Below are positions 1 to 10,342 of a stretch of DNA of 26,264 nucleotides, piece by piece. The translations under genes and the position numbers were made by a program. This stretch comes from a virus (lineage: Duplodnaviria; Caudoviricetes). The DNA lies in IMG/VR virus record IMGVR_UViG_3300005758_000048, positions 1-26,264 of that record. One strand, given 5' to 3'. The notes under the pieces are model-generated. The model was not told the DNA's origin, made no database searches, and saw only the letters and a list, made by a program, of their open reading frames with translations. Each line of letters starts with the position of its first letter. The first letter of the stretch is position 1.

Positions 1-57
1 TGATGCTCCAAATGGTGGTACGAAACAGGAACGAAACAGGGTTGCGATGATGCGGGT

Positions 58-1122
58 TTAGAGGGCGACATAGTTCCTCAATCGGTAGTACAGCTCACGC
101 TCAATGGTGGCGTCTGAATGGGAGTACAGAGCCAAATCCTCCCAGCGGTCGGCGTCGACCAAATCAAGGACCTGGTCGCCTGACATTTCGTAGCCGGCGG
201 GTGGCACGATGCCCAGCTGCTGACACAGCGTTTTGAGCTTCATCGGAGTTCCGGTCGGAAACAGAATCTGCATCAGGTCGATGGACTCTTTGGCGTACCT
301 GCCGCGATCCATGATCACCTCGCGGACTGGCAGCTGCAAAACCATCGAGCGGGCGACGATTACGCTGTCATCGAACCCCTTGATGTTGTAGCCGACGCGG
401 AACTCGAATCTGTCGATGCAATCCCACAGGTGATTGAGCAGGGCGACTTCATCCGCCGCGGTCTTGCAAAGGACGACATAAACGCGGTCCCGCGTTGCGA
501 TGCCAGCGCTGACAATGCGACAGCCAAACGGGGCAAAAGACAGTTTCCGCCACTCCTCCAGCTCCGAGGTGTCACACCCTGTCAGCTTGCCAATTTCTTC
601 GGTGATTGCTGACAGGAGCCCGATGCGATTTTTGCCGGCCGTTTCCAATGCCGTCAGCTCGTTGAGTTCGGCGAGCGACAGCTTTTCCAGTGCGGGCTTG
701 ATGGTGTTGATGGGCTTGCCCAGAAGGCTGTCCAGATTGCTACCCGAGTACGGTCGTTCAACCGGCAGCTTTGTTTCGGGGCGCGGAAATCGCGAATCGT
801 CCGGCACTGTTTCGAGATCGTAGACGAACCACGAACCACGCTGCGGAAGGATCTGCGGCAACTCGTCACAGCTCACCACCTGCACGTCCGTCACGGGCTC
901 ATCCGGCGGCGTCGTTTGGATTTCCGCTGGTTGTGCGGCCGGAGCCGGTGCTGGCGCTGCTGCTGGCGGTTGGGGTGTTTCGTCGGTACCGGGGATTGGT
1001 GTGAGGTGAAAGCTGTCACCGGCTGCCCACGCCACCTCCGGATTGGTCGTGGGTTTCGGTGTGGCTGGTGGTGCGTCGCTGCCGAACACGCCGGCAAACG
1101 GGTCTGAGTTATTGCTGGTCAT
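58..1122 (-). CDS. DEDD-type 3'-5' exonuclease (DnaQ/PolB-exonuclease-like) with Pro/Ala-rich N-terminus
   Basis: ExoI FVYDLETVP, ExoII VGYNIKGFD, ExoIII YSHSD motifs. Start placed at ATG 1122 (MTSNNS; ATGA overlap with upstream stop, AGAGG upstream) rather than 1260. Confidence 0.8.
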   Translation of the reverse strand: MTSNNSDPFAGVFGSDAPPATPKPTTNPEVAWAAGDSFHLTPIPGTDETPQPPAAAPAPAPAAQPAEIQTTPPDEPVTDVQVVSCDELPQILPQRGSWFVYDLETVPDDSRFPRPETKLPVERPYSGSNLDSLLGKPINTIKPALEKLSLAELNELTALETAGKNRIGLLSAITEEIGKLTGCDTSELEEWRKLSFAPFGCRIVSAGIATRDRVYVVLCKTAADEVALLNHLWDCIDRFEFRVGYNIKGFDDSVIVARSMVLQLPVREVIMDRGRYAKESIDLMQILFPTGTPMKLKTLCQQLGIVPPAGYEMSGDQVLDLVDADRWEDLALYSHSDATIERELYYRLRNYVAL

Positions 1123-1331
1123 CGATAAATTTCCTCTTTGGTAACGGGTCGCCGCTGGTTGTCCACCGAACCTGATCGGGAACGTAAGCGGCTGGTTGGG
1201 ATCTCGTATTGTCCGTCGGGTGTTGCTCCGCGCCGGGAGCGTTCTTCGGCTTCGGTCCATTCCGACTGGATCTGCTTTTTGCCAGCCTCAATCTCAGCCA
1301 GCGTCGGCAGAAAGCGGGGAAACGTCGTCAT
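1119..1331 (-). CDS. Small hypothetical phage protein (PTLAEIEAGKKQIQSEWTEAEERSRR)
   Basis: 70-aa ORF, AGGAG upstream, stop overlaps the exonuclease start. Confidence 0.65.
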   Translation of the reverse strand: MTTFPRFLPTLAEIEAGKKQIQSEWTEAEERSRRGATPDGQYEIPTSRLRSRSGSVDNQRRPVTKEEIYR

Positions 1332-1542
1332 AGATCAGGATCTCCTCTCGTGCAATGTGAACGTCTGCAGGTGCCTGGATTGTCAGTGAAACGTGGGTTG
1401 CGTCAATGCGATTCACGCCCACCCAAACATCCACGTCGCCCACGCGAATGAGCAGGCGCTGAAGTTTTTTGCGAGTGATTGTCAGCCCGGAGATTTTGCC
1501 GGGACGGTCGCTCATTTTTGGTCGTTTTGCGTTGGTAATCAT
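1294..1542 (-). CDS. csrA: CsrA/RsmA-like RNA-binding translational regulator
   Basis: LTITRK...IRVGDVDVWVGV..I....VSLTIQAPADVHIAREEI follows the CsrA pattern (L.L.RK..E.I.IG....V.lgI.AP..V.I.REEI). ATG 1542 has AAGGAAGGG RBS; the longer ORF start (1773) lies in the repeat array. Confidence 0.8.
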   Translation of the reverse strand: MITNAKRPKMSDRPGKISGLTITRKKLQRLLIRVGDVDVWVGVNRIDATHVSLTIQAPADVHIAREEILIYDDVSPLSADAG

Positions 1543-1559
1543 GTGGTTCCCTTCCTTGG

Positions 1560-1845
1560 TGTTCTGTGGTGTTGTGGTGGTCAAAATGTGCCATGCCATG
1601 CCGCGCCGCGCCAAGCCAGACCGTGCCTTGCCCCGCCGAGCCCCGCCTGACCGCGCCTTGCGCTGTGGTGTGGTGTATCGTGATTTGGTGGGTGAGATAA
1701 AAATCCATGCCTTGCCCCACCGGACCATGCCAGACCGTGCCCCGCCACGCCTGACGGAACCGAGCCGCACCATGCGGTGTGGTGTATCGGGTGAGAAGAA
1801 AATCCATGCCTCGCCCCGCCTGGCCCCACCCCGCCGCGTTGTGAT
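1560..1845 (-). ncRNA. GGY-NN pentamer array block 2: three putative guide-RNA units
   Basis: Minus strand units: 1835-1806 (6 pentamers; NN=GG,GG,CA,GG,GA,AT); 1771-1707 (13, one CGT variant; GC,TC,TC,CA,GT,GG,AC,CT,AT,CC,GG,AA,AT); 1657-1588 (14; GC,CA,GG,TC,GG,AA,AC,CT,TT,GC,GC,AT,AT,AC). Linkers GGATTTT...CTCACCC...CGATACACCACAC. The repeat is seen directly; RNA function is inferred. Confidence 0.8.
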
Positions 1846-2307
1846 TCACTTCGTCGGCTTCGGCGTCGCCGGAAACAGCTTCGGCCTGTCATTCACCACC
1901 GGCTGCAATGGTGCATCAGGTGTGGGCGTCTTCATCATCGCGAGCCTCGCCGCCTGCCGTGTGACGTTGTGGCCGAATTCGTCCCGCTGCTGCGGTGTCA
2001 ATTTGCTGACATCGACTCCGAGCAACCGCCGATGTGCTCGCCGTGCAATCCGGAGGCCATCCGCAAACCGCTTCGGATTGTACGCTGCGGAAGCCTGATC
2101 GGTGAGGATCTGCAGTCCATGCTGGGTCGCACGAACCGTGATGATCCGCCCAAATTTTGCCTTCATCGCCTGCTCAACGTCGGCTTTCAGTGCCAGCAGT
2201 TTCAGGGCGAATTTTTCGGGGTGCTCGTAACGGTCAATGCCAAGAATCTCGGTGCACTGAGTTTCCGTCAGCTCGTCGCCGAGGTTGAGTTTTGAGTAGT
2301 CCATCAT
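1846..2307 (-). CDS. Hypothetical protein embedded between the two pentamer arrays (candidate accessory factor)
   Basis: 153-aa ORF with AAGGA RBS, exactly filling the gap between array blocks; basic helix LRIARRAHRRL followed by VDVSKLT. Confidence 0.85.
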   Translation of the reverse strand: MMDYSKLNLGDELTETQCTEILGIDRYEHPEKFALKLLALKADVEQAMKAKFGRIITVRATQHGLQILTDQASAAYNPKRFADGLRIARRAHRRLLGVDVSKLTPQQRDEFGHNVTRQAARLAMMKTPTPDAPLQPVVNDRPKLFPATPKPTK

Positions 2308-2324
2308 TGCGAAAATCCTTTAGA

Positions 2325-2596
2325 GAAAATGTCCATGCCTCGCCACGCCCCGCCCCGCCGCGCCTTGCCATGCCTTGCCGAGCCTAGCCACGCCGCGTTG
2401 TGGTGTTTCGGGGAGTGAGATAAAAATCCATGCCTTGCCTCACCAAGCCAGACCTGGCCACGCCGCGCCGCGCCGCGCCGGGCCACGCCGGGCGGTGTGG
2501 TGTGGTGTTTCGGGTGTCTCAAAAATCCATGCCGTGCCCGACCCGGCCCTGCCTTGCCCTGCCCAGCCTAGCCGCGGCACGCCGAGCCCAGCCTGA
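2325..2596 (-). ncRNA. GGY-NN pentamer array block 1: three putative guide-RNA units
   Basis: Begins 3 nt after the stop of the Cas7-like gene. Units: 2593-2529 (13, one GCC variant; NN=TG,TC,GT,GC,TA,TG,AG,AA,AG,CG,CG,AC,AT); 2489-2430 (12; GT,CC,GC,GC,GC,GT,CA,CT,TT,GA,AA,AT); 2394-2335 (12; GT,TA,TC,AA,AT,AA,GC,GG,GG,GT,GA,AT). Each ends GGCATGGA then a T-run; linkers contain CCCGAAACACCACA. Confidence 0.8.
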
Positions 2597-3175
2597 TCAC
2601 TCTTCACTGACGACGCTGAACCGCCCAAACTTCGGCCGGTAGTCACACAGCCCGACCAGCCTTCCGGCGTCGCGGAGGGCCTTGGTCAGCTGCTCACGGT
2701 TGATCTGTTCGTCATCGTAGGCACAGGAAAATTCAAGTGCCCAGTTATTGAATTTTGGTCGCGTCCGCATCACGCGGCTGTTGTTGACGATCACCGGCGT
2801 AACGAATGCGTAGGTCTCGTGTTTCGCCCACAGTTCATCGACGGTCAGCTGTTCGCCATATTCCAAAACGGGATCTTCAAGCACCATCACAGCCGACTTA
2901 AACGAGGTGCCGAGCTTCGACTTTTTCGCGCCGCCGATGATGGTCCCTTCGATGTTCGCCGAGGGGATGATCACCTGTCCCTTTTCGTTCAGGTACAACG
3001 ATGCCCGAAACTCCAGCCGCTGAAGTTCGATGTGGTGTTCATCGGTCTTTTTGCGGAGGCCAGTAATCTCCTTCATCTGCTTTGCCAGTGGGTTGAGCGG
3101 ATTGGCCATTGCCCCGTTGTGCATCAGGAGTGGGGATTCGCCAACGATGCGGTAAGTAACTTCGTTCTGTGCCAT
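2597..3175 (-). CDS. Stand-alone Cas7/RAMP-fold RNA-binding protein (Vipr-like)
   Basis: 192 aa with RAMP-like motifs: N-terminal strand YRIVGESPLLMH, VIIPSANIEG (cf. IPgSSlKG), RTRPKFNNWALEF and C-terminal glycine-rich loop AGRLVGLCDYRPKFGRFSV; AAGGA RBS; directly upstream of the pentamer arrays. Confidence 0.78.
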   Translation of the reverse strand: MAQNEVTYRIVGESPLLMHNGAMANPLNPLAKQMKEITGLRKKTDEHHIELQRLEFRASLYLNEKGQVIIPSANIEGTIIGGAKKSKLGTSFKSAVMVLEDPVLEYGEQLTVDELWAKHETYAFVTPVIVNNSRVMRTRPKFNNWALEFSCAYDDEQINREQLTKALRDAGRLVGLCDYRPKFGRFSVVSEE

Positions 3176-3253
3176 GGTCTGAGGTCCTTAAGTTAGAATA
3201 AAACACGGTCTGAAATGGAACACAAAAACAAACGGTCATTCATCAAAACTCCA

Positions 3254-3327
3254 CCCCGGCGATTCGTTCGCTGCGGGGATCAGCCGCCCCGGTCGAAGGG
3301 GATCAGCCACGCGGTGAATCATCACCG
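3254..3327 (-). promoter_or_regulatory. Structured intergenic element: tandem hairpins with an 11-nt direct repeat
   Basis: + strand GGGGATCAGCC at 3275-3285 and 3298-3308, each closing a CCCC...GGGG stem, plus hairpin CGGTGA-ATCA-TCACCG at 3312-3327. Confidence 0.45.
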
Positions 3328-3391
3328 GACTCGCACGCTGTCATGTGCTGGCGGGGTGGGTTACGGTCGGTCTGAGATGGTCTGGTGTGGG

Positions 3392-4348
3392 TTATGCGAA
3401 GTGCGAAAGCGGTCTTGCATCGAGTTCCAAAATTCGCCGAACAACCAGCAAATACTGGTTTTCCATCTGCCGCATTTCGATCATGGAATCGACGTCCACG
3501 CCGATGGTCGGCTTACCGCTTTCGACGTGCTCATTGATCATCTGCGACAACTGGCGGAACCAGTCTGCGCGGGCCACGATTTGCGGTGTGGCGATGCGCT
3601 GCTGTTCGCTGGCGGACCACTCGTGCTCGCGTCGCTGTCGTTCGGCTTCTGCCCGAGCCTTTGCCGCCTCACGTGCCTGGGCTTCCTGCTCCGCCTGCAG
3701 TCGCATTGCCTCAGCCCGCCTCGCCTGCTCCTCACGGGCTATCCGCTGAGCCTCTTCGCGGTTTTTCGCCGCGATTGCGTCAGCCTCAGCCCGTTTGCGT
3801 GCCGCGATCTCCTGCTCACGCTTGCGGGTGTCGAGCGTGTCGAGCAAAGCAGCCCAAGACTCCGGCGTGTAGCCGACCAGTGACAGTGGTGTGGTTGCTC
3901 GCAGTTCTGCGACTCCCCACTCACCGTGGCGGGCCTGCAGCTGCTGGAGGCGTTCGGCGTGGACTGCGGCCTGAGCCTGGCGGATCCGGTCGGCTTTCTC
4001 GCGGGCCACGCGGTCCAGCTGAGCTTGCATCGCGTCTTCGATTGGCGACACCCGTGCGGTCAGTCGTTTGGCGAGGTCATTCACCCGGCGCTGCCAGTCG
4101 AGGGCGTCAGCGTTGAGCGACTTGCGGCAGTTGTCGATCTCGCAGCGAACCGCCTTCGCTGATTTGCGAACGGAATCAACCTGCTTTTCGCCGTCGGCCT
4201 CAATGGTGGTGTTGGCGAGCGACTCAACACGCTGAATCGCGATCTCGTGACTCTGCAGGCGTGCAAGCTGTGTGTCTGCAGGTGCTGCAGGTGTCGCCGC
4301 TTTCGGCGGGTCGATAAGATCGGAGGCAAATGGGTCTGGGGTCGTCAT
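3392..4348 (-). CDS. Coiled-coil phage early protein (DUF1351-like)
   Basis: Start MTTPDP at 4348 (TAATG overlap). VRCEIDNCRKSL...VNDLAKRL...IEDAM pattern followed by a long E/R/A/Q-rich helix; family call is tentative. Confidence 0.6.
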   Translation of the reverse strand: MTTPDPFASDLIDPPKAATPAAPADTQLARLQSHEIAIQRVESLANTTIEADGEKQVDSVRKSAKAVRCEIDNCRKSLNADALDWQRRVNDLAKRLTARVSPIEDAMQAQLDRVAREKADRIRQAQAAVHAERLQQLQARHGEWGVAELRATTPLSLVGYTPESWAALLDTLDTRKREQEIAARKRAEADAIAAKNREEAQRIAREEQARRAEAMRLQAEQEAQAREAAKARAEAERQRREHEWSASEQQRIATPQIVARADWFRQLSQMINEHVESGKPTIGVDVDSMIEMRQMENQYLLVVRRILELDARPLSHFA

Positions 4349-4455
4349 TACGCACGGTCTCCGAGAAGAAAAACAAGCGCGGTGGTAAATGCAATCGCAA
4401 GTGCCACCCCGCAACAGGCACCAGCAAAAAACGGTCCGAGGTCCGTGATGGTCAT
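4348..4455 (-). CDS. 35-aa single-pass membrane peptide
   Basis: MTITDLGPFFAGACCGVALAIAFTTALVFLLGDRA; overlaps both neighbours at start/stop codons (ATGA, TAATG). Confidence 0.6.
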   Translation of the reverse strand: MTITDLGPFFAGACCGVALAIAFTTALVFLLGDRA

Positions 4456-4736
4456 TGTGTCGGCTCCGGAAGCGGCAACAGAATCGGTGTGCAGATACAA
4501 CGCGCCCGCTCGCCCTGCAGTCGCGACAACTCCAGCTCCAATTGCCGGATGCGGATATCGCGGTCTTTGATCTCGCTTTCCAACCGGTCGCGAGTGTGGC
4601 CGTAGTACGTCGAGTACAGAGCGTCGCGGCATTTGTCACTGCAGGTAACGCGCGGACGGCCAACGGTGCCGCGCTGGCGGTCGATGGGTTGGTTACAGAC
4701 CCGGCAGAGGTTGACGATTGGGGTTGCGGTGGTCAT
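4452..4736 (-). CDS. Zinc-finger protein (CxxC...GRP...CSxxCR) with C-terminal coiled coil
   Basis: CRVCNQPI...GRPRVTCSDKCR; start at ATG 4736 by ATGA overlap. Confidence 0.75.
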   Translation of the reverse strand: MTTATPIVNLCRVCNQPIDRQRGTVGRPRVTCSDKCRDALYSTYYGHTRDRLESEIKDRDIRIRQLELELSRLQGERARCICTPILLPLPEPTQ

Positions 4737-4975
4737 GTGCTTCGGGTTTCCTCCGCTGCGTCGACTGCAGCGATCACTGCAGCCTGAGCGATTCTGAGGG
4801 ACTTCGCCTCGCCGCGGATCTGGCGGCGGCTGTCGGTCATGTAGTCGTAGTGGTCGGCGACAAAATGGAAAACGTCGGTGCGATAGACAATCAAAAGCCA
4901 GCCGCGGTGATAGGCATCCCACTGTCTGGCGGTCTTGTACCATTTCCACTCAACAGGTGGCGCTGCGGTGGTCAT
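4733..4975 (-). CDS. Hypothetical phage protein
   Basis: 80 aa, ATGA overlaps at both ends. Confidence 0.7.
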   Translation of the reverse strand: MTTAAPPVEWKWYKTARQWDAYHRGWLLIVYRTDVFHFVADHYDYMTDSRRQIRGEAKSLRIAQAAVIAAVDAAEETRST

Positions 4976-5448
4976 CGTGCCCGGCTCCCGTATGTGCCAT
5001 TGTGCAGTGCGTTGATGGTGATTGCCGCAACGGTTTTCTCTACCGTGTATCCTTGGCGGCGGTAGTCCTCAATTGTCTCACGCTCGCACTCAATGCGTCG
5101 CTCACTGTAATCGTGCAGCATCAGCAAAAATGAGCAGGCGGAAAAATAGCATTCGGCTGCGTCTGCCGTCGGCACTGCGAATTCGATCGGCAGGCAATCC
5201 GCCCACGCAATGACAACGCCGTGAGCGGGATAAATGCCCGGCATAATAAATTTCGGGCTGTCCGGATCTCCAGCCGCATATTTCAGGTAGCCGGCTCCGG
5301 CACCTGCAGGCAAACCGCCAACTGTAGACTGGACTGCGACCAGTACCCATTTGCGCTCAAGTGGCAGTTGTTGGCGGCGACCCTTCCGCCAGTCAAAGGC
5401 GGTCCACTGAATCGGTAGGATTGCTGATGTCGGTGTTGCGGTGGTCAT
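4972..5448 (-). CDS. Hypothetical phage protein (N-terminal DUF551-like W...LP....VLV...V.AW pattern)
   Basis: 158 aa, ACAGGAG upstream, stop overlaps next start. Confidence 0.7.
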   Translation of the reverse strand: MTTATPTSAILPIQWTAFDWRKGRRQQLPLERKWVLVAVQSTVGGLPAGAGAGYLKYAAGDPDSPKFIMPGIYPAHGVVIAWADCLPIEFAVPTADAAECYFSACSFLLMLHDYSERRIECERETIEDYRRQGYTVEKTVAAITINALHNGTYGSRAR

Positions 5449-5482
5449 GCCTGTGCAGTCTCCTGTGCGGCGTCGTGTGGCG

Positions 5483-5686
5483 TCAATCGAGATTGTCCAC
5501 GTAATCTTGGTCGTCGGAACTCAATTCCGAGCCGTCAGAATAGACCACCGTGCGGTCTGAATACCCACCCTGCCGCACGCAGCCAGCGTGATCTTTGTCG
5601 ATGCAGCGTTTTGCCGCCTTAATCGTCTTGTGCTTGTGCCCGCAACATCCGCGAACGCTGCCCATGGTTGTGTATGTGTCGCTCAT
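5483..5686 (-). CDS. Hypothetical protein with CGHKHKT motif (possible metal binding)
   Basis: 67 aa, strong RBS ACAGGAG; GSVRGCCGHKHKTI...C...D...C...GGYSDR. Confidence 0.75.
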   Translation of the reverse strand: MSDTYTTMGSVRGCCGHKHKTIKAAKRCIDKDHAGCVRQGGYSDRTVVYSDGSELSSDDQDYVDNLD

Positions 5687-5717
5687 CGCCCCTGACTCCT
5701 GTCTGGCTGTTTGGCTG

Positions 5718-5745
5718 AAAAACCCGCGGACAACTGCGCCCGCGG
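5718..5745 (-). terminator. Rho-independent terminator after the first early gene
   Basis: Minus strand CCGCGGGC-GCAGTT-GTCCGCGG followed by GTTTTT. Confidence 0.65.
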
Positions 5746-5770
5746 TGTGGTCTGTGCTGCAGGGGTGGTG

Positions 5771-6118
5771 CTACTGCCAGCGGTAATGAACGCCGCCGAC
5801 GTTCACGCGCCCGTAGTCTTTCGGGCTGTCCAGGATCTCAGCGGTGAGCACGTCGGCAAGATCGTCAGTCAGGTCAGCGGCTGGCAGATTTCGCCAATTG
5901 TGCCCCACGCCAGACCGATCGATCTGAATCGTTTTTCCGCAGACAATTGCCACGGTGTCGCGTTCCACCACCTTCACCTCCGGCTGCGTCTCGTGTTGCT
6001 CACACTCGTCGGCGATCTGCTCCGCTTCGGCGCGGCTGGAAACCCAGTCGCTGAGCAGTTCGCGGGAATTCACATTGAGGACGGCGTATTCGGTCGTTAC
6101 TGCTGCTGTCGTTGACAT
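5771..6118 (-). CDS. Hypothetical protein, first gene of the early operon
   Basis: ATG 6118 (MSTTAAVTTEY) with ACAGGAG RBS, downstream of the promoter. Confidence 0.75.
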   Translation of the reverse strand: MSTTAAVTTEYAVLNVNSRELLSDWVSSRAEAEQIADECEQHETQPEVKVVERDTVAIVCGKTIQIDRSGVGHNWRNLPAADLTDDLADVLTAEILDSPKDYGRVNVGGVHYRWQ

Positions 6119-6200
6119 TGCCCTGACTCCTGTCTGGCTGGTCTGATGAATCGGTCTGAATCGGTCTGTCACTCGCTGCGGTCATCAGCGGTGTGCAGGG

Positions 6201-6260
6201 AGTATCGTCGATCCGTGGCAGTGGGTCAAGGTTGTTCTGATAAAAAAATAAAAAAAATTC
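6201..6260 (-). promoter_or_regulatory. Sigma70-type promoter with UP element
   Basis: -35 TTGACC (6229-6224), 17-bp spacer, -10 GATACT (6206-6201), preceded by a conspicuous A/T tract (6240-6259) in an otherwise GC-rich sequence. Confidence 0.8.
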
Positions 6261-6284
6261 AAAACAGCGAAAAACGGCCGGAAA

Positions 6285-7028
6285 TCAAACCTGCACCGGC
6301 TCCAGCCGCACCCGAGCTCCCAGAATCCCCGCGGTGCACCCGTAGAGAGTGAGCGAGGGAAAAACGAACACCCCCGACCTGTAGACGTCGGCTGGCAACT
6401 CCGCGGCCTGCTGTGCGTCATACGTCTGATAAAGCGGGTATTCCCGCCACGGCGGGTTCGGCGTCACGATTGCCACGCGGCTGGGGGCGGTCACTGGAAA
6501 CATCGACCAGCGTTTCAGGTCGTCGCCGGGAGTAATCCACGGCCGGCCGTCTGGCGAATCATAAGGACGGTCTGGTGGCTCAACGAAAATCGCGCCCGGC
6601 GGTCGGTAGTCGTTGCAGATGATGGTCCATTCATTGCCCACCCATTTACAATGTTCGTGACCCGAGCCGTAATAGTAAAAGCCCTCGTTAAGCGTCGGTG
6701 GTCCGTCGGTGTTTCGCACGTGACAAAAACGCCAGTTCATCATATCGGCGAAAACCTGTTCGCCTTTAGTCTCACCATACGCGGCCTTAAGTTGCTGCAG
6801 CAGGTCATAATCCAGCCAGCTTATGCCGCCAACGGTCTGCAATACGCGGCGGCAGATGTCCTGAATCTGGTCGCCGAAATAAACTGCAAATGCATACGGT
6901 ATGCCGATAGCATCGAACGCCCCGCGGTTTGCCAGCAAATTGAACGGCGCTCGAGCCTCATCCAGCGGCCCCGGGTATCGCCACCCCGGCATTGGATTCC
7001 ACGGGTTGCCGATAGCCGAGGGATTCAT
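6285..7028 (-). CDS. Hypothetical Trp/Pro/Tyr-rich protein, last gene of the late operon
   Basis: Open frame of about 247 aa from MNPSAIGNPW; start uncertain; no motif recognised. Confidence 0.65.
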   Translation of the reverse strand: MNPSAIGNPWNPMPGWRYPGPLDEARAPFNLLANRGAFDAIGIPYAFAVYFGDQIQDICRRVLQTVGGISWLDYDLLQQLKAAYGETKGEQVFADMMNWRFCHVRNTDGPPTLNEGFYYYGSGHEHCKWVGNEWTIICNDYRPPGAIFVEPPDRPYDSPDGRPWITPGDDLKRWSMFPVTAPSRVAIVTPNPPWREYPLYQTYDAQQAAELPADVYRSGVFVFPSLTLYGCTAGILGARVRLEPVQV

Positions 7029-7758
7029 AGAGACGCTCCGTGTAAGGATCCAGTTTGGGCGTGATTGATTCGACAGGTTCGGAGGTTCGCTGAAATCGCG
7101 AGTACCACCCAGTATCGCTGGGACCGGTGGCGAGCGACTGCCCGTGGAAGTGGCCGGTGTGCCAACGGAAGACGTATTGCAGCGGCCCCAGCAAAGCCGG
7201 GTCAACCGTGCGGCCGTGCGTCGCGAAATGACTCAACATCTGCTGGTCAAAATTGGCGGCATGACTGAGTGGCCATCCGCCCACCTGTTCCCAGTATTCG
7301 CGGCGGAATGCGATCGATCCGTGAAACCGGCCGTCGGCCTGCTCAACGCGGTATTCGCCGATCCGGCATTGATAATCAGATAGTACCCGAGACGGCTTGC
7401 TGAAGTCACCATCGCGCAAAGCTTGAGCGTGGTTGATGGTGTGCAGCGGCAGGAACGAATCATCATCCTCCGCCACAATAATGATCTCGCTTTCGCACAG
7501 CCCCGCCAGTGCGTTGAATTTTGCGGGAAGGCTCGCGAACCGCTTCCGGATTGAGATGATTTCCCAGCGATCTCCGGCGGGCTGCGTAGGATATTGGCCA
7601 ACGTCGTCGAGAATCAGCAGTCGGAGCTTATCGGCTGGGTACTGCTGAGCCTGGAAGCAAGCGATCAGGTTCGCCAGCGTCTGGGGTCGGCAGTAGGTTG
7701 GCGTGATCCATGTTACGGTTGGTAAATCGCTCTGAGTTTGTCCGTCCAGTGTGTGCAT
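6958..7758 (-). CDS. Glycosyltransferase, GT-A fold (GT2-like)
   Basis: VTWITPTYCRP, LLILDD, IIIVAEDDDSF (DxD), EQVGGWP, YVFRW. Confidence 0.88.
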   Translation of the reverse strand: MHTLDGQTQSDLPTVTWITPTYCRPQTLANLIACFQAQQYPADKLRLLILDDVGQYPTQPAGDRWEIISIRKRFASLPAKFNALAGLCESEIIIVAEDDDSFLPLHTINHAQALRDGDFSKPSRVLSDYQCRIGEYRVEQADGRFHGSIAFRREYWEQVGGWPLSHAANFDQQMLSHFATHGRTVDPALLGPLQYVFRWHTGHFHGQSLATGPSDTGWYSRFQRTSEPVESITPKLDPYTERLYESLGYRQPVESNAGVAIPGAAG

Positions 7759-8357
7759 GGGATGTGGTCCTGTGTGGTGAGATTGTGCCGGTAATCGTTC
7801 GGCGGATTCATCGGGTCGATATACCACGGCAGATGTTTTGCCTGAAGTCCACCGTGGCGAATTGATGGTCCGTAACCGCCCCAAGTTGGAACGGTATATA
7901 CGGCTAACGTCGTGTCGATATCGGCGGCGTATAGGTTGCCGTCGATAGGCTTAGCCCAAAACTGCGATTCGTGATCGCGCACCTGTCGCGTGATCTCATT
8001 GTCCGGCAGTCCATCGAGTGACAGAGCGGCCCCGACTTTGGTGAATTCGGGGCGCGATTCGGCGATCTCACGCAGTTGCAGCAGCCCATCAGGCGGCCAG
8101 CCCTCGATGGACAAATCGCCGTCGGTCACCACGTATGGAACCACCGGCTGGAATGCAGCCCAGGCAGCACGGCAACCGAGGTTCGGCGCGAGGTGCACTT
8201 TGATCCATCGCGGCAGCTTCGCATATCTGCGGAAAAGCGGTTGGTAAGTGCTTCCGCAGTCGATAACTGTGAGTGAGTGGACGCCTCGCTGATCTGCCAA
8301 TTGGCAAGCAAGATCCGCGGCACAGAGCAGGTTTCGTGAGGTGATGTAAACTTGCAT
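7713..8357 (-). CDS. Glycosyltransferase, GT-A fold (GT2-like)
   Basis: VIDCGSTYQPL, NLG, YVVTDGD (DxD), ADIDTTLAVY, AKHLPWY. Confidence 0.8.
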   Translation of the reverse strand: MQVYITSRNLLCAADLACQLADQRGVHSLTVIDCGSTYQPLFRRYAKLPRWIKVHLAPNLGCRAAWAAFQPVVPYVVTDGDLSIEGWPPDGLLQLREIAESRPEFTKVGAALSLDGLPDNEITRQVRDHESQFWAKPIDGNLYAADIDTTLAVYTVPTWGGYGPSIRHGGLQAKHLPWYIDPMNPPNDYRHNLTTQDHIPCTHWTDKLRAIYQP

Positions 8358-8363
8358 GGTCGA

Positions 8364-9308
8364 TCAGATAAAGCAGGAGACTGGCGGATAAGTTTCCGGC
8401 ATTCGGGCGAGCGTGTCGAATTGCAGGGCTGTGAGTCGCCCATCGCGCGATTCAGGGCGCCCGGTGTCCTCATTGATGCCCTCGACATAATGGCGGCGGA
8501 GGCGGTCCAGTGGAATGCCAAGCTCCTGATGTCCGAGGATGTAATTGCGCACTTTGCCGTGAAGGGACAGAGGCGATTTTCTGCCACCTTCAGGGTCCCC
8601 AAAGCGGTGTTGCCATCGCAGCATCGGCAGGCAGAGACAGCGATGTCCGGCCTGCCGAAATTTCGTGTGGATGTAGAATTCCTCGCCACCAAATTCTCTG
8701 AAATACGGGTTGAATTTCAGCCAGGCATCGCGGCGGCAGCAGAACAATCCGAGACCCATTGCGGGGATCTCAAACTCACCGCCGAAATCGGCATGTTCCC
8801 CGCGCGGGTCGTGTCCCCAGATGCCCCACATACCATCACGCCAGACGTCGTCAAACTGCGTCAGGATTCCGCGGTGGCTGTCCAGCATCATCGGGCCGGA
8901 AATGAGGTCCGACGAATCGGGGCAGCGGTCCATGTAGTCAAAGAGTGTGGGCAGGGCCATCGGGTGCAACAGGACGTGCGAATCCATCACCAAAACCCAG
9001 TCCGCGGCAGCCTCATCGAAAATCTTCTGTCGAGGTGCAGCTGTGCCCTCAACTTCGCCGAACGGAATCCATCGGGCGGAGTGTGGGGCCAGCGTGTCCC
9101 CCGGCTTCGGGGCCGATCGTCCAGCGTTGATGTGGCCGATGAGCCCCTGTGCTCGCTGCCCCGCACGTGAATCGGGGGCGTTGTCCACCACGATCAGCTC
9201 ACACTCGCTGACGTTGGGGACGTACATGCGGAGAGCGTTGAGCGAAAAGTAGAGCCCGTCGAAATCGTTGTGGGTTGCGATGCCGATTGTGAGACGCGGT
9301 TTTGTCAT
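8364..9308 (-). CDS. GT-A glycosyltransferase with polypeptide GalNAc-transferase (GT27)-like motifs
   Basis: LIVVDN, VLVMDSH (DxH), IPAMGLGLF, FGGEE, RWQHRF parallel the ppGalNAc-T motifs DSH, PTMAGGLF, WGGEN, RVGHVF. Start MTKPRL at 9308 by ATGA overlap. Confidence 0.85.
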   Translation of the reverse strand: MTKPRLTIGIATHNDFDGLYFSLNALRMYVPNVSECELIVVDNAPDSRAGQRAQGLIGHINAGRSAPKPGDTLAPHSARWIPFGEVEGTAAPRQKIFDEAAADWVLVMDSHVLLHPMALPTLFDYMDRCPDSSDLISGPMMLDSHRGILTQFDDVWRDGMWGIWGHDPRGEHADFGGEFEIPAMGLGLFCCRRDAWLKFNPYFREFGGEEFYIHTKFRQAGHRCLCLPMLRWQHRFGDPEGGRKSPLSLHGKVRNYILGHQELGIPLDRLRRHYVEGINEDTGRPESRDGRLTALQFDTLARMPETYPPVSCFI

Positions 9309-10342
9309 GGTCCCTCTTGTGGTGATCTGGTGGTTGTGGTGGTCGGTTCGCCGGTTGTGGTTGTTGTTGTGGGTGCGGCCGTGGTCGTTGTGGTCGCCCC
9401 CGGATCTGGCGTTGTCGTGGTTGTCGGTGCGGGCGTCGATGTGGTGGTGACGACTGGCGGGCCGGGCGTTGTTGTGGTGGTCGGCCCCGGCGTGGTGGTC
9501 GTTGTTGGTCCCGGGGTTGTCGTGGTCGTCGGCCCCGGGGTTGTAGTCGTTGTCGGAGGTGCGGGCGTCGTGGTTGTTGTGCTGGTCGTTGTGGTCGGTG
9601 CGGGCGTTGTGGTAGTCGGCTCCGGATAGATCGGCTCGCCACGATACCATTCATAAATCCGCGGCTCAACCACGCCAACCATGAGCCCGATTCCCTGAGT
9701 ATACCAGCCCAATGCCAGAGCCCCGACGGCGATTCGTGGCGCGGTCGTTCGATTGGTCAAAGCCCAGCAGCGGAACACGTCGTTGACGGCGGCGAGCGGG
9801 CTTTCGGAGACTCTGAGAACCAGCGTGTCGAAATTGCCCTGAGTGAGCGGTACGGCTTCGAGTTCGGGGATCCGTTCGGGGAGCGACACAAACCAGCGGC
9901 CGGGGTACCACGTTTGCCCTGTGCCGGTTGGCGTCCGCTCGCTGATTGCCCCGCCGGTGACTTTGCAAATGTCCCGCAGCCCAGGCGGTAGAGCGGCGCG
10001 GAATGTCAAAGCCGAGGCACTGAATGGGATCGGCTCCGACTGCACCCCGCGCCAACTCACGCGGAAGGTGCCAGACTCGACGAGGCCGGTCTGGTATGCG
10101 GCCGGATAGCCGATCAGGCAGACGTCATAGGAATACGGGTAAAGCGGGTCAATCGCCATCGGGCAGTATCGGCCCTCAGTCCATCCCTGCGGCGCCTGCA
10201 GCAGCATCATCGGGACAGCTTGCCCGCCGGTTGGTGCGGCGTATTGTGGCTGTCCTCCGGATTGTCTCCGCCACCAGTCGCAGAGTTCATTGAACGTGCG
10301 CCGATCCTGCTCTTCAATTGCATAAAAATCGGCGTTCGCCAT
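9305..10342 (-). CDS. Putative tail-associated protein with C-terminal mucin-like Thr/Pro domain
   Basis: 345 aa; GTFRVSWRG..SEPIPFSASA module shared with the upstream tail protein; the last ~100 aa are PTTTTT repeats. Confidence 0.8.
   Translation of the reverse strand: MANADFYAIEEQDRRTFNELCDWWRRQSGGQPQYAAPTGGQAVPMMLLQAPQGWTEGRYCPMAIDPLYPYSYDVCLIGYPAAYQTGLVESGTFRVSWRGVQSEPIPFSASALTFRAALPPGLRDICKVTGGAISERTPTGTGQTWYPGRWFVSLPERIPELEAVPLTQGNFDTLVLRVSESPLAAVNDVFRCWALTNRTTAPRIAVGALALGWYTQGIGLMVGVVEPRIYEWYRGEPIYPEPTTTTPAPTTTTSTTTTTPAPPTTTTTPGPTTTTTPGPTTTTTPGPTTTTTPGPPVVTTTSTPAPTTTTTPDPGATTTTTAAPTTTTTTGEPTTTTTRSPQEGP
9329..9619 (-). repeat. Coding Thr/Pro repeat including (TTTTTPGP)x4
   Basis: ACN-rich tract with synonymous codon variation between units. 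Confidence 0.92.

What the first reader, a model, noticed from the sequence alone, without database searches (positions are those of the whole stretch)
1560..3175. Phage-encoded Cas7/RAMP-like protein with six GGY-NN pentamer RNA units: candidate RNA-guided system with a non-contiguous code
Seen in the sequence: a 192-aa gene with RAMP/Cas7-like motifs is followed 3 nt after its stop by 5-nt periodic tracts in which GGY is fixed and the next two bases vary. There are six units of 13, 12, 12, 6, 13 and 14 pentamers (only 2 of 70 deviate from GGY), each closed by GGCATGG plus a T-run and separated by conserved CCACA-rich linkers. No cas1/cas2, nuclease or repeat-spacer array is present. Established: Cas7 proteins polymerise along guide RNAs with fixed periodicity. 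Inference: each subunit binds one GGY and presents NN, so the dinucleotide string is the guide. This matches my recollection of the recently reported VIPR systems (to be verified), here in an apparently planctomycete phage early operon, plausibly acting against competing phages or host genes.
Basis: partly seen in the sequence, partly recalled or inferred. Interest (0 to 1): 0.97.

Follow-up and report, generated by a model that had tools for sequence, protein, structure and literature searches.

The report
Phage VIPR RNA-guided silencing system
This phage carries a relative of the Vipr protein, an accessory gene and six GGY-NN repeat tracts, making it a new member of the recently described VIPR systems, which here likely act as guide RNAs to silence still-unidentified rival phages.

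Summary
Observation confirmed: six GGY-NN tracts (13, 12, 12, 6, 13, 14 pentamers; 68 of 70 GGY), far above chance, follow a 192-aa gene. That gene is a homologue of SUSP1 Vipr (PDB 36pp, E 2e-32). All five residues shown by mutation to be needed for silencing are identical, and the model has a RAMP fold. All 24 viral loci with relatives carry such tracts. This is a VIPR system (2026 preprints), not a new kind. The module is an accessory cassette of a tailed phage, probably of planctomycetes; a syntenic relative lacks it. Variants in public metagenomes keep the genes and swap the guides. No target was found above chance, so the skip rule is inferred from published work. One difference from the characterised SUSP1-type RNAs: the sequence after each tract is G-poor, C/A-rich and predicted unstructured (median -0.5 versus about -7.5 kcal/mol in relatives). 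Verdict: new member of a known kind, with an odd linker.

The parts
2597..3175 (-). vipr gene, 192 aa, RAMP-fold RNA-binding subunit
   Evidence: phmmer to PDB 36pp_D 'SUSP1 Vipr protein' E 2.2e-32, residues 8-188; phrog_4652 E 9.5e-52; AF2 pLDDT 94.6; Foldseek hits are Csm/Cmr subunits, best E 2.9e-6
2529..2593 (-). vrRNA tract U1, 13 pentamers (one deviant), starting 3 nt after the vipr stop
2490..2528 (-). linker U1-U2: GGA, T-run, then C/A-rich with CCACA repeated at 5-nt period
2430..2489 (-). vrRNA tract U2, 12 pentamers
2395..2429 (-). linker U2-U3
2335..2394 (-). vrRNA tract U3, 12 pentamers
1846..2307 (-).
   Evidence: family profile vs profile of genes directly downstream of vipr in the wV8/Medea1/Pseudomonas clade: hhalign 96.9%, E 1.7e-10, 125 columns, reversed control 0.2%; homologues beside vipr in 15 of 24 viral loci
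1806..1835 (-). short tract U4, 6 pentamers (below the usual 9-16; possibly a remnant)
1772..1805 (-). linker U4-U5
1707..1771 (-). vrRNA tract U5, 13 pentamers (one deviant)
1658..1706 (-). linker U5-U6
1588..1657 (-). vrRNA tract U6, 14 pentamers; its NN string read as codons gives A-H/Q-G-S-G-K/N-T-L-L/F-A-A
1543..1587 (-). C/A-rich trailer of U6 leading into the csrA start
1294..1542 (-). csrA-family gene, 82 aa, directly after the array; probably phage backbone rather than part of the system
   Evidence: PF02599 E 4.6e-9, above the curated cut-off; a csrA is also present in the VIPR-less relative G337

Best explanation
This is a phage-encoded VIPR system, a Vipr homologue with a Vap1-like gene and six GGY-NN tracts, whose tracts are predicted to be guide RNAs that would direct Vipr filaments to silence genes of rival mobile elements. 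Shown here: the identity and fold of the protein, the tract anatomy, the family-wide linkage of protein and tracts, variation concentrated at NN, the accessory nature of the cassette, and no self-target in the window. Inferred from SUSP1 work: the operon is transcribed early and cut into unit-sized RNAs. One Vipr binds each pentamer and buries GGY; the NN pairs read double-stranded DNA with one skipped base per unit; the bound filament blocks transcription without cutting; Vap1 strengthens the block. Inferred and untested: the targets are co-infecting phages, prophages or satellites of a planctomycete host, and the invariant GGCAU-GGA plus U-run marks the 3' end of each unit.
For: Homology to SUSP1 Vipr over 181 residues. 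The five residues whose alanine substitution abolished or reduced silencing (D177, R138, K33, K82, R39) map to D178, R139, K35, K84, R41; H17, G87 and R179 are also identical (read from the alignment). RAMP fold. Tracts beside vipr in 24 of 24 IMG/VR loci (some are the same phage) and 88 of 107 loci in all. Vap1 link. In metagenome contigs 20 of 26 in-tract differences fall on NN (40% expected, p 1.4e-4) and 4 are C/T swaps at Y; whole pentamers are gained or lost and whole tracts replaced while vipr and vap stay alike. Best self-matches under the 1-nt skip rule equal the shuffled null. The syntenic phage G337 lacks vipr and tracts at this place.
Against: No natural target was found above chance for any guide, so the skip rule is not confirmed for this locus. 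Transcription is not shown: one RNA-library contig holds a variant of the locus but may be DNA. The 3' sequences lack the predicted structure seen in relatives. Some contact residues differ (W178 to Y, K88 to T, E71/M72 to A/N). The Vap1 profile alone does not find the window ORF significantly (E 1.1); the link needs the family profile. The NN-biased variants may include paralogous units laid on each other, so they are not fully independent of the window's own repeats.
Confidence: 0.88

Rival explanations
1. A VIPR module that is genuine in origin but decaying or only partly active here: structured tails lost, U4 truncated, guides out of date.
For: Tails predicted unstructured in 5 of 6 units; U4 has 6 pentamers; two deviant pentamers; no targets found.
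Against: vipr and vap are intact with key residues kept. Near-identical proteins (95-99%) and many guide variants with the same linker type occur in several independent metagenome studies. The linker motif is repeated in all units.
Confidence: 0.06
2. The guides are aimed at host chromosomal genes (host takeover or decoy sites) rather than at rival phages.
For: U6 decodes to a Walker-A-like string. Solo vrRNAs that target host REP elements are published (10.64898/2026.10.15.759431).
Against: Matches in 331 Planctomycetota genomes (U6: 2 vs 1 control) and in 34 selected genomes (U1 0, U2 4 vs 5 control, U3 1 vs 0, U5 0) are at chance level; the hits inspected lie in unrelated genes. The true host species may not have been searched.
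Confidence: 0.15
3. An orphan CRISPR Cas7/Csm3 beside unrelated low-complexity DNA repeats.
For: Foldseek's best hits are Csm/Cmr subunits; that library ends in April 2026 and showed no Vipr chain.
Against: The sequence hit to Vipr is far stronger than the structural hits. No cas or PADLOC hits. Tracts follow the gene across the family.
Confidence: 0.01

Closest known systems
VIPR system of Escherichia phage SUSP1 / Pseudomonas fulva prophage (type II; 10.64898/2026.04.26.720920, .720927; PDB 36pp)
   Same: Vipr homologue with conserved functional residues; GGY/NN tracts of 12-14 units; Vap1-family accessory gene; phage location; no CRISPR array or cas1/cas2.
   Different: About 37% identity to Felixounavirus Viprs and a separate clade in a quick tree. 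Six units all downstream of vipr, with vap between units 3 and 4. Linkers are G-poor and predicted unstructured, whereas SUSP1 has a pseudoknot tail. Host probably a planctomycete.
Sister IMG/VR loci L001-L016, L021 (57-61% Vipr identity)
   Same: Same vipr-array-vap(-array) layout and the same Vap family; csrA nearby in L001-L007.
   Different: Their 3' sequences fold (median -7.5 kcal/mol, n=44) with a short hairpin that varies in a compensatory way by eye; the window's do not (median -0.5, n=6).
Class 1 CRISPR backbone RAMPs (Csm3/Csm4/Cmr, Cas7)
   Same: RRM-thumb-G-loop fold; one subunit per fixed RNA period.
   Different: Contiguous spacer and repeat-spacer array; period 6 rather than 5; partner Cas genes are absent here.

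Membership tests
VIPR | Vipr protein: stand-alone RAMP homologue with RRM core, thumb and G-loop | tested here: met
   PDB 36pp_D E 2.2e-32; same PHROG 4652 as the wV8 Vipr; AF2 and Foldseek
VIPR | Residues needed for GGY binding and DNA clamping | tested here: met
   All 5 residues shown by mutation to matter are identical; W178Y, K88T, E71A, M72N differ
VIPR | Adjacent tracts of 9-16 GGY/NN pentamers with variable NN | tested here: met
   5 of 6 tracts have 12-14 units, one has 6; all 16 NN occur
VIPR | Minimal locus (vipr plus vap) without CRISPR array or cas genes, mostly in phages | tested here: met
   Terminase, portal, capsid and tape measure in the window; no cas or PADLOC hits in the 28 and 24 ORFs scanned; no Rfam hit. 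The record is a genome fragment.
VIPR | Tracts are transcribed and co-purify with Vipr | not testable with these tools
   Only assembled contigs were available; one RNA-library contig spans vap and vipr of a variant, which does not show transcription
VIPR | DNA targets recognised by the 1-nt skip rule | tested here: inconclusive
   No match above chance in the window, fetched loci, IMG/VR exact seeds or planctomycete genomes
VIPR type II (SUSP1 / P. fulva clade) | vap1 accessory gene | tested here: met
   Profile-profile 96.9%, E 1.7e-10. wV8 gene 94 is taken as vap1 from its position after vipr; it was not checked against the SUSP1 sequence.
VIPR type II (SUSP1 / P. fulva clade) | Vipr falls in the type II clade | tested here: inconclusive
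   Quick tree of 92 rows: the window lies in a 13-row viral clade (support 97); the wV8/Medea1/Pseudomonas rows form another clade; deeper forks are unresolved. The published type assignments (Fig. 5A, data S4) were not visible.
VIPR type II (SUSP1 / P. fulva clade) | Invariant structured 3' tail (pseudoknot in SUSP1) | tested here: not met
   34 nt after each tract: MFE 0 to -3.1, median -0.5, against median -7.5 and 0 of 25 as weak as -2.5 in type II-like loci; whole-unit z-scores -0.44 to +0.94. Pseudoknots are not modelled by these folds.
Class 1 CRISPR-Cas | Repeat-spacer array and partner cas genes | tested here: not met
   None in 1-8000 by repeat search; no Rfam match in the window; no cas hit

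The most novel reading that the evidence does not exclude
A tail-less VIPR subtype: the structured 3' cap is replaced by an invariant CAUGGA-U-run junction and an unstructured C/A-rich linker. The CsrA protein encoded right after the array binds the AUGGA motif of each unit, capping, processing or titrating the guide RNAs and so tying guide supply to the host's Csr regulon.
Probability: 0.08. Interest if true: 0.72.

Novelty: new member of a known kind. Interest (0 to 1): 0.4.

Why it matters
VIPR is only months old in print and has been tested mainly in enterobacterial and Pseudomonas phages. This locus gives a compact, intact example from a divergent, probably planctomycete phage lineage, with six guides and visible guide turnover in natural populations. 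If its RNAs work without a structured tail, the minimal vrRNA is smaller than the SUSP1 model suggests, and the junction motif becomes a direct handle on two questions the papers I read leave open: how arrays are processed and how new guides are written.

Tried and rejected
Target search under the 1-nt skip rule found nothing above chance.
- Self: best 15-16 of 22-24 bases for the five long guides, equal to shuffles.
- IMG/VR exact seeds: U6 18 bases, 1 hit, 22 of 28, out of codon phase in a LysR-like gene; U2 18 bases, 2 hits, 18 of 24; U3 18 bases, 1 hit, 22 of 24, in phase but on a 73% GC locus (L031), about what chance gives in a collection of this size by my estimate; U1 16 bases, 9 hits, 17-19 of 26; U5 16 bases, 4 hits, 18-21 of 26. 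U4 was not searched in the collections.
- Planctomycete genomes: at control level.
- 76 guides from related loci against the window and related phages: no excess for skip 1 (3 at 85% or more, versus 2, 2 and 1 for skips 0 and 2 and shuffles).
The junction motif found 0 IMG/VR records and 1 unrelated metagenome match, so no sibling arrays were available for covariation. A 5' leader hairpin with the first pentamers is possible in single folds, but z-scores are near zero and variants do not all keep G at N4: not supported. Fold searches of the Vap model (pLDDT 78, pTM 0.52) gave no significant match; weak Foldseek rows are mostly HTH regulators and VIA rows are generic helices. The promoter and terminator scan was at chance level. 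Rfam gave nothing. CsrA as a dedicated partner is weakened by csrA in VIPR-less G337 and by ANGGA ending only 46 of 185 tracts in related loci. Earlier-scan look-ups returned nothing. The careful tree did not finish; the quick tree was used.

Full report
Observation. The window is a 26,264-base virus record of a tailed phage: terminase, portal, protease-capsid, tape measure and tail genes, all on the - strand. Six GGY-NN tracts lie at 2529-2593, 2430-2489, 2335-2394, 1806-1835, 1707-1771 and 1588-1657, with 13, 12, 12, 6, 13 and 14 pentamers. There are no others in the window, and 100 simulated sequences never scored above 9 against 12-28 for the real tracts. 68 of 70 pentamers are GGY and all 16 NN occur.

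The protein. Gene 2597-3175 matches PDB 36pp_D, 'SUSP1 Vipr protein', at E 2.2e-32 over residues 8-188. Counting along that alignment, SUSP1 H17, K33, R39, K82, G87, R138, D177 and R179 correspond to H19, K35, R41, K84, G89, R139, D178 and R180. These include all five residues whose substitution abolished or reduced silencing in 10.64898/2026.04.26.720927. W178 is Y, K88 is T, and E71/M72 of the pyrimidine pocket are A/N. The AF2 model (pLDDT 94.6) hits Csm/Cmr subunits (best E 2.9e-6). The family is large: 877 proteins at E<=0.001 and 131 phage records.

Linkage to tracts. All 24 IMG/VR loci found with the protein carry GGY-NN tracts on the same strand (several are copies of one phage). Over all 107 Vipr loci fetched, 88 have a tract of 5 or more units within 2.5 kb and 19 do not by this GGY-only scan.

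The missed accessory gene. A 153-aa ORF (1846-2307) sits between U3 and U4. It has no Pfam or PHROG hit itself. A profile search found 1,215 relatives. A profile built from 169 family members picked out, among 1,901 ORFs, only genes beside vipr (15 of 24 viral loci) and, weakly, the genes directly after vipr in wV8 and Medea1 (E 0.002, 0.007), both phrog_5926. Profile against profile, the family matches nine such downstream genes at 96.9%, E 1.7e-10, over 125 columns (reversed control 0.2%). The Vap1 profile hits 44 of the 169 members at E<0.001 but the window ORF itself only at E 1.1. I read it as a distant Vap1. Its fold was not resolved.

Context and host. A csrA gene (PF02599) follows U6, then a DnaQ-like exonuclease. 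The related phage G337 (45.5 kb, estimated 76% complete; structural proteins 56-75% identical) keeps the glycosyltransferase, csrA and exonuclease order but has no vipr and no tract. The VIPR module is therefore an accessory cassette, and csrA is probably backbone. For the host: the best cellular Vipr match is in a Pirellula MAG (49%), the next in a Planctomycetota MAG. The terminase matches 30 of 151 genomes of the same class as that MAG at E<=1e-40 (29-39% identity), against 26% over half its length in cultured phages. No control phylum was searched, so the assignment is probable only. The best-holding public runs are labelled freshwater or aquatic.

Natural variation. Contigs from six runs were laid on the locus. 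vipr and vap are covered by close variants, while tracts are replaced, rearranged, or gain and lose whole pentamers. Of the 34 listed differences in 1540-1860, 8 lie in linkers and were set aside. Of the other 26, 20 are at NN (p 1.4e-4), 4 are C/T swaps at Y, 1 restores the deviant G of U5 and 1 breaks a G in a heavily gapped contig. Paralogous units may contribute. One contig from an RNA library spans vap and vipr with a different array; this does not show transcription.

Targets. The published rule replaces each GGY by one wildcard (10.64898/2026.04.26.720920). No self-target exists in the window. Exact-seed scans of IMG/VR for five guides, mismatch-tolerant scans of 331 (U6) and 34 (U1, U2, U3, U5) planctomycete genomes, and cross-scans of all fetched loci gave only chance-level hits (details under Tried and rejected). 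U6 read as codons spells a Walker-A-like string (A-H/Q-G-S-G-K/N-T-L-L/F-A-A; the motif name is from my own knowledge). This would fit wobble-aligned targeting of an ATPase gene, but no such gene was found and the resemblance may be chance.

What differs. In SUSP1 the tract is followed by an invariant structured tail with a pseudoknot. Here the 34 nt after each tract are 9-24% G and fold at 0 to -3.1 kcal/mol (median -0.5, n=6). Sister loci give -7.5 (n=44; 6 as weak as -2.5), type II-like loci -7.5 (n=25; none) and other loci -8.8 (n=90; 11). The linkers repeat CC at a 5-nt period, i.e. GGTGT read on the other strand. The papers state that array architectures vary among seven types and that the P. 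fulva structures lack a pseudoknot-like fiducial, so this does not bar VIPR membership. It does keep me from filing the locus as SUSP1-type.

Mechanism (0.88). Early transcription and processing give unit RNAs; Vipr polymerises one subunit per pentamer; NN pairs read double-stranded DNA with a one-base skip; the filament blocks transcription, helped by Vap1; the likely targets are rival elements. Only the parts list, homology, linkage, variation pattern and lack of self-targeting are shown here. The rest is carried over from SUSP1.

Literature seen. 10.64898/2026.04.26.720920: whole text with figure legends, no figures; its PMC supplement PDF by term search only. .720927: parts 1-2 of 6 and passages. 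10.64898/2026.10.15.759431: parts 1-3 of 8 and passages. 10.64898/2026.10.21.760802: passages. 'Planctomyc' and 'CsrA' occur in none of the first three main texts, and a search for CsrA + phage-encoded + Planctomycet found no paper. The type figure, tables S2-S3 and data S4 could not be seen and may already hold this clade. That CsrA binds ANGGA motifs is recalled, not from a call.

Verdict. Real, correctly recognised, and a new member of a known kind. Interest 0.4, raised by the unusual unstructured linkers, the lineage and the visible guide turnover, and limited by the absence of a target.

Noticed in passing
window 1294-1542 (-): csrA-family gene directly after the last tract; five of six tracts end in CAUGGA, which resembles a CsrA site (recalled). 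csrA also lies shortly downstream of the VIPR module in L001-L007 and L032, but also in VIPR-less G337.
   Followed up: partly
window 1567-1584, 4331-4348, 4719-4736, 4958-4975, 5431-5448 (-): Four early genes begin with a shared 18-nt segment (M-T-T-A/P); the trailer after U6 carries a similar segment with TTG in place of ATG (family D4). Possibly a cassette-exchange site.
   Followed up: no
window linkers 2490-2528, 1772-1805, 1658-1706: The CCACA periodicity reads as two to three GGTGT pentamers on the + strand, a short antisense GGY-NN tract; unexplained.
   Followed up: partly
window 1588-1657 (-): The U6 dinucleotide string decodes to a Walker-A-like peptide; no matching gene was found.
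   Followed up: yes
L001-L002 last tract before vap; L008/L016: Identical tracts recur at the same array position in different phage records while neighbouring tracts differ, suggesting polarised or conserved guides.
   Followed up: no
L106:843-1000 and L109:356-500: Arrays with almost no linker (tract, GGATGA, next tract), possibly the published staggered form; nearly the same sequence sits in MAGs labelled Bacillota and Planctomycetota.
   Followed up: no
window 6961-9650 (-): Two glycosyltransferase family 2 matches among the genes between the tail and early regions, conserved in G337.
   Followed up: no
L115, L116: Two viral contigs are 100% identical to the window's structural proteins, probably the same phage.
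   Followed up: no
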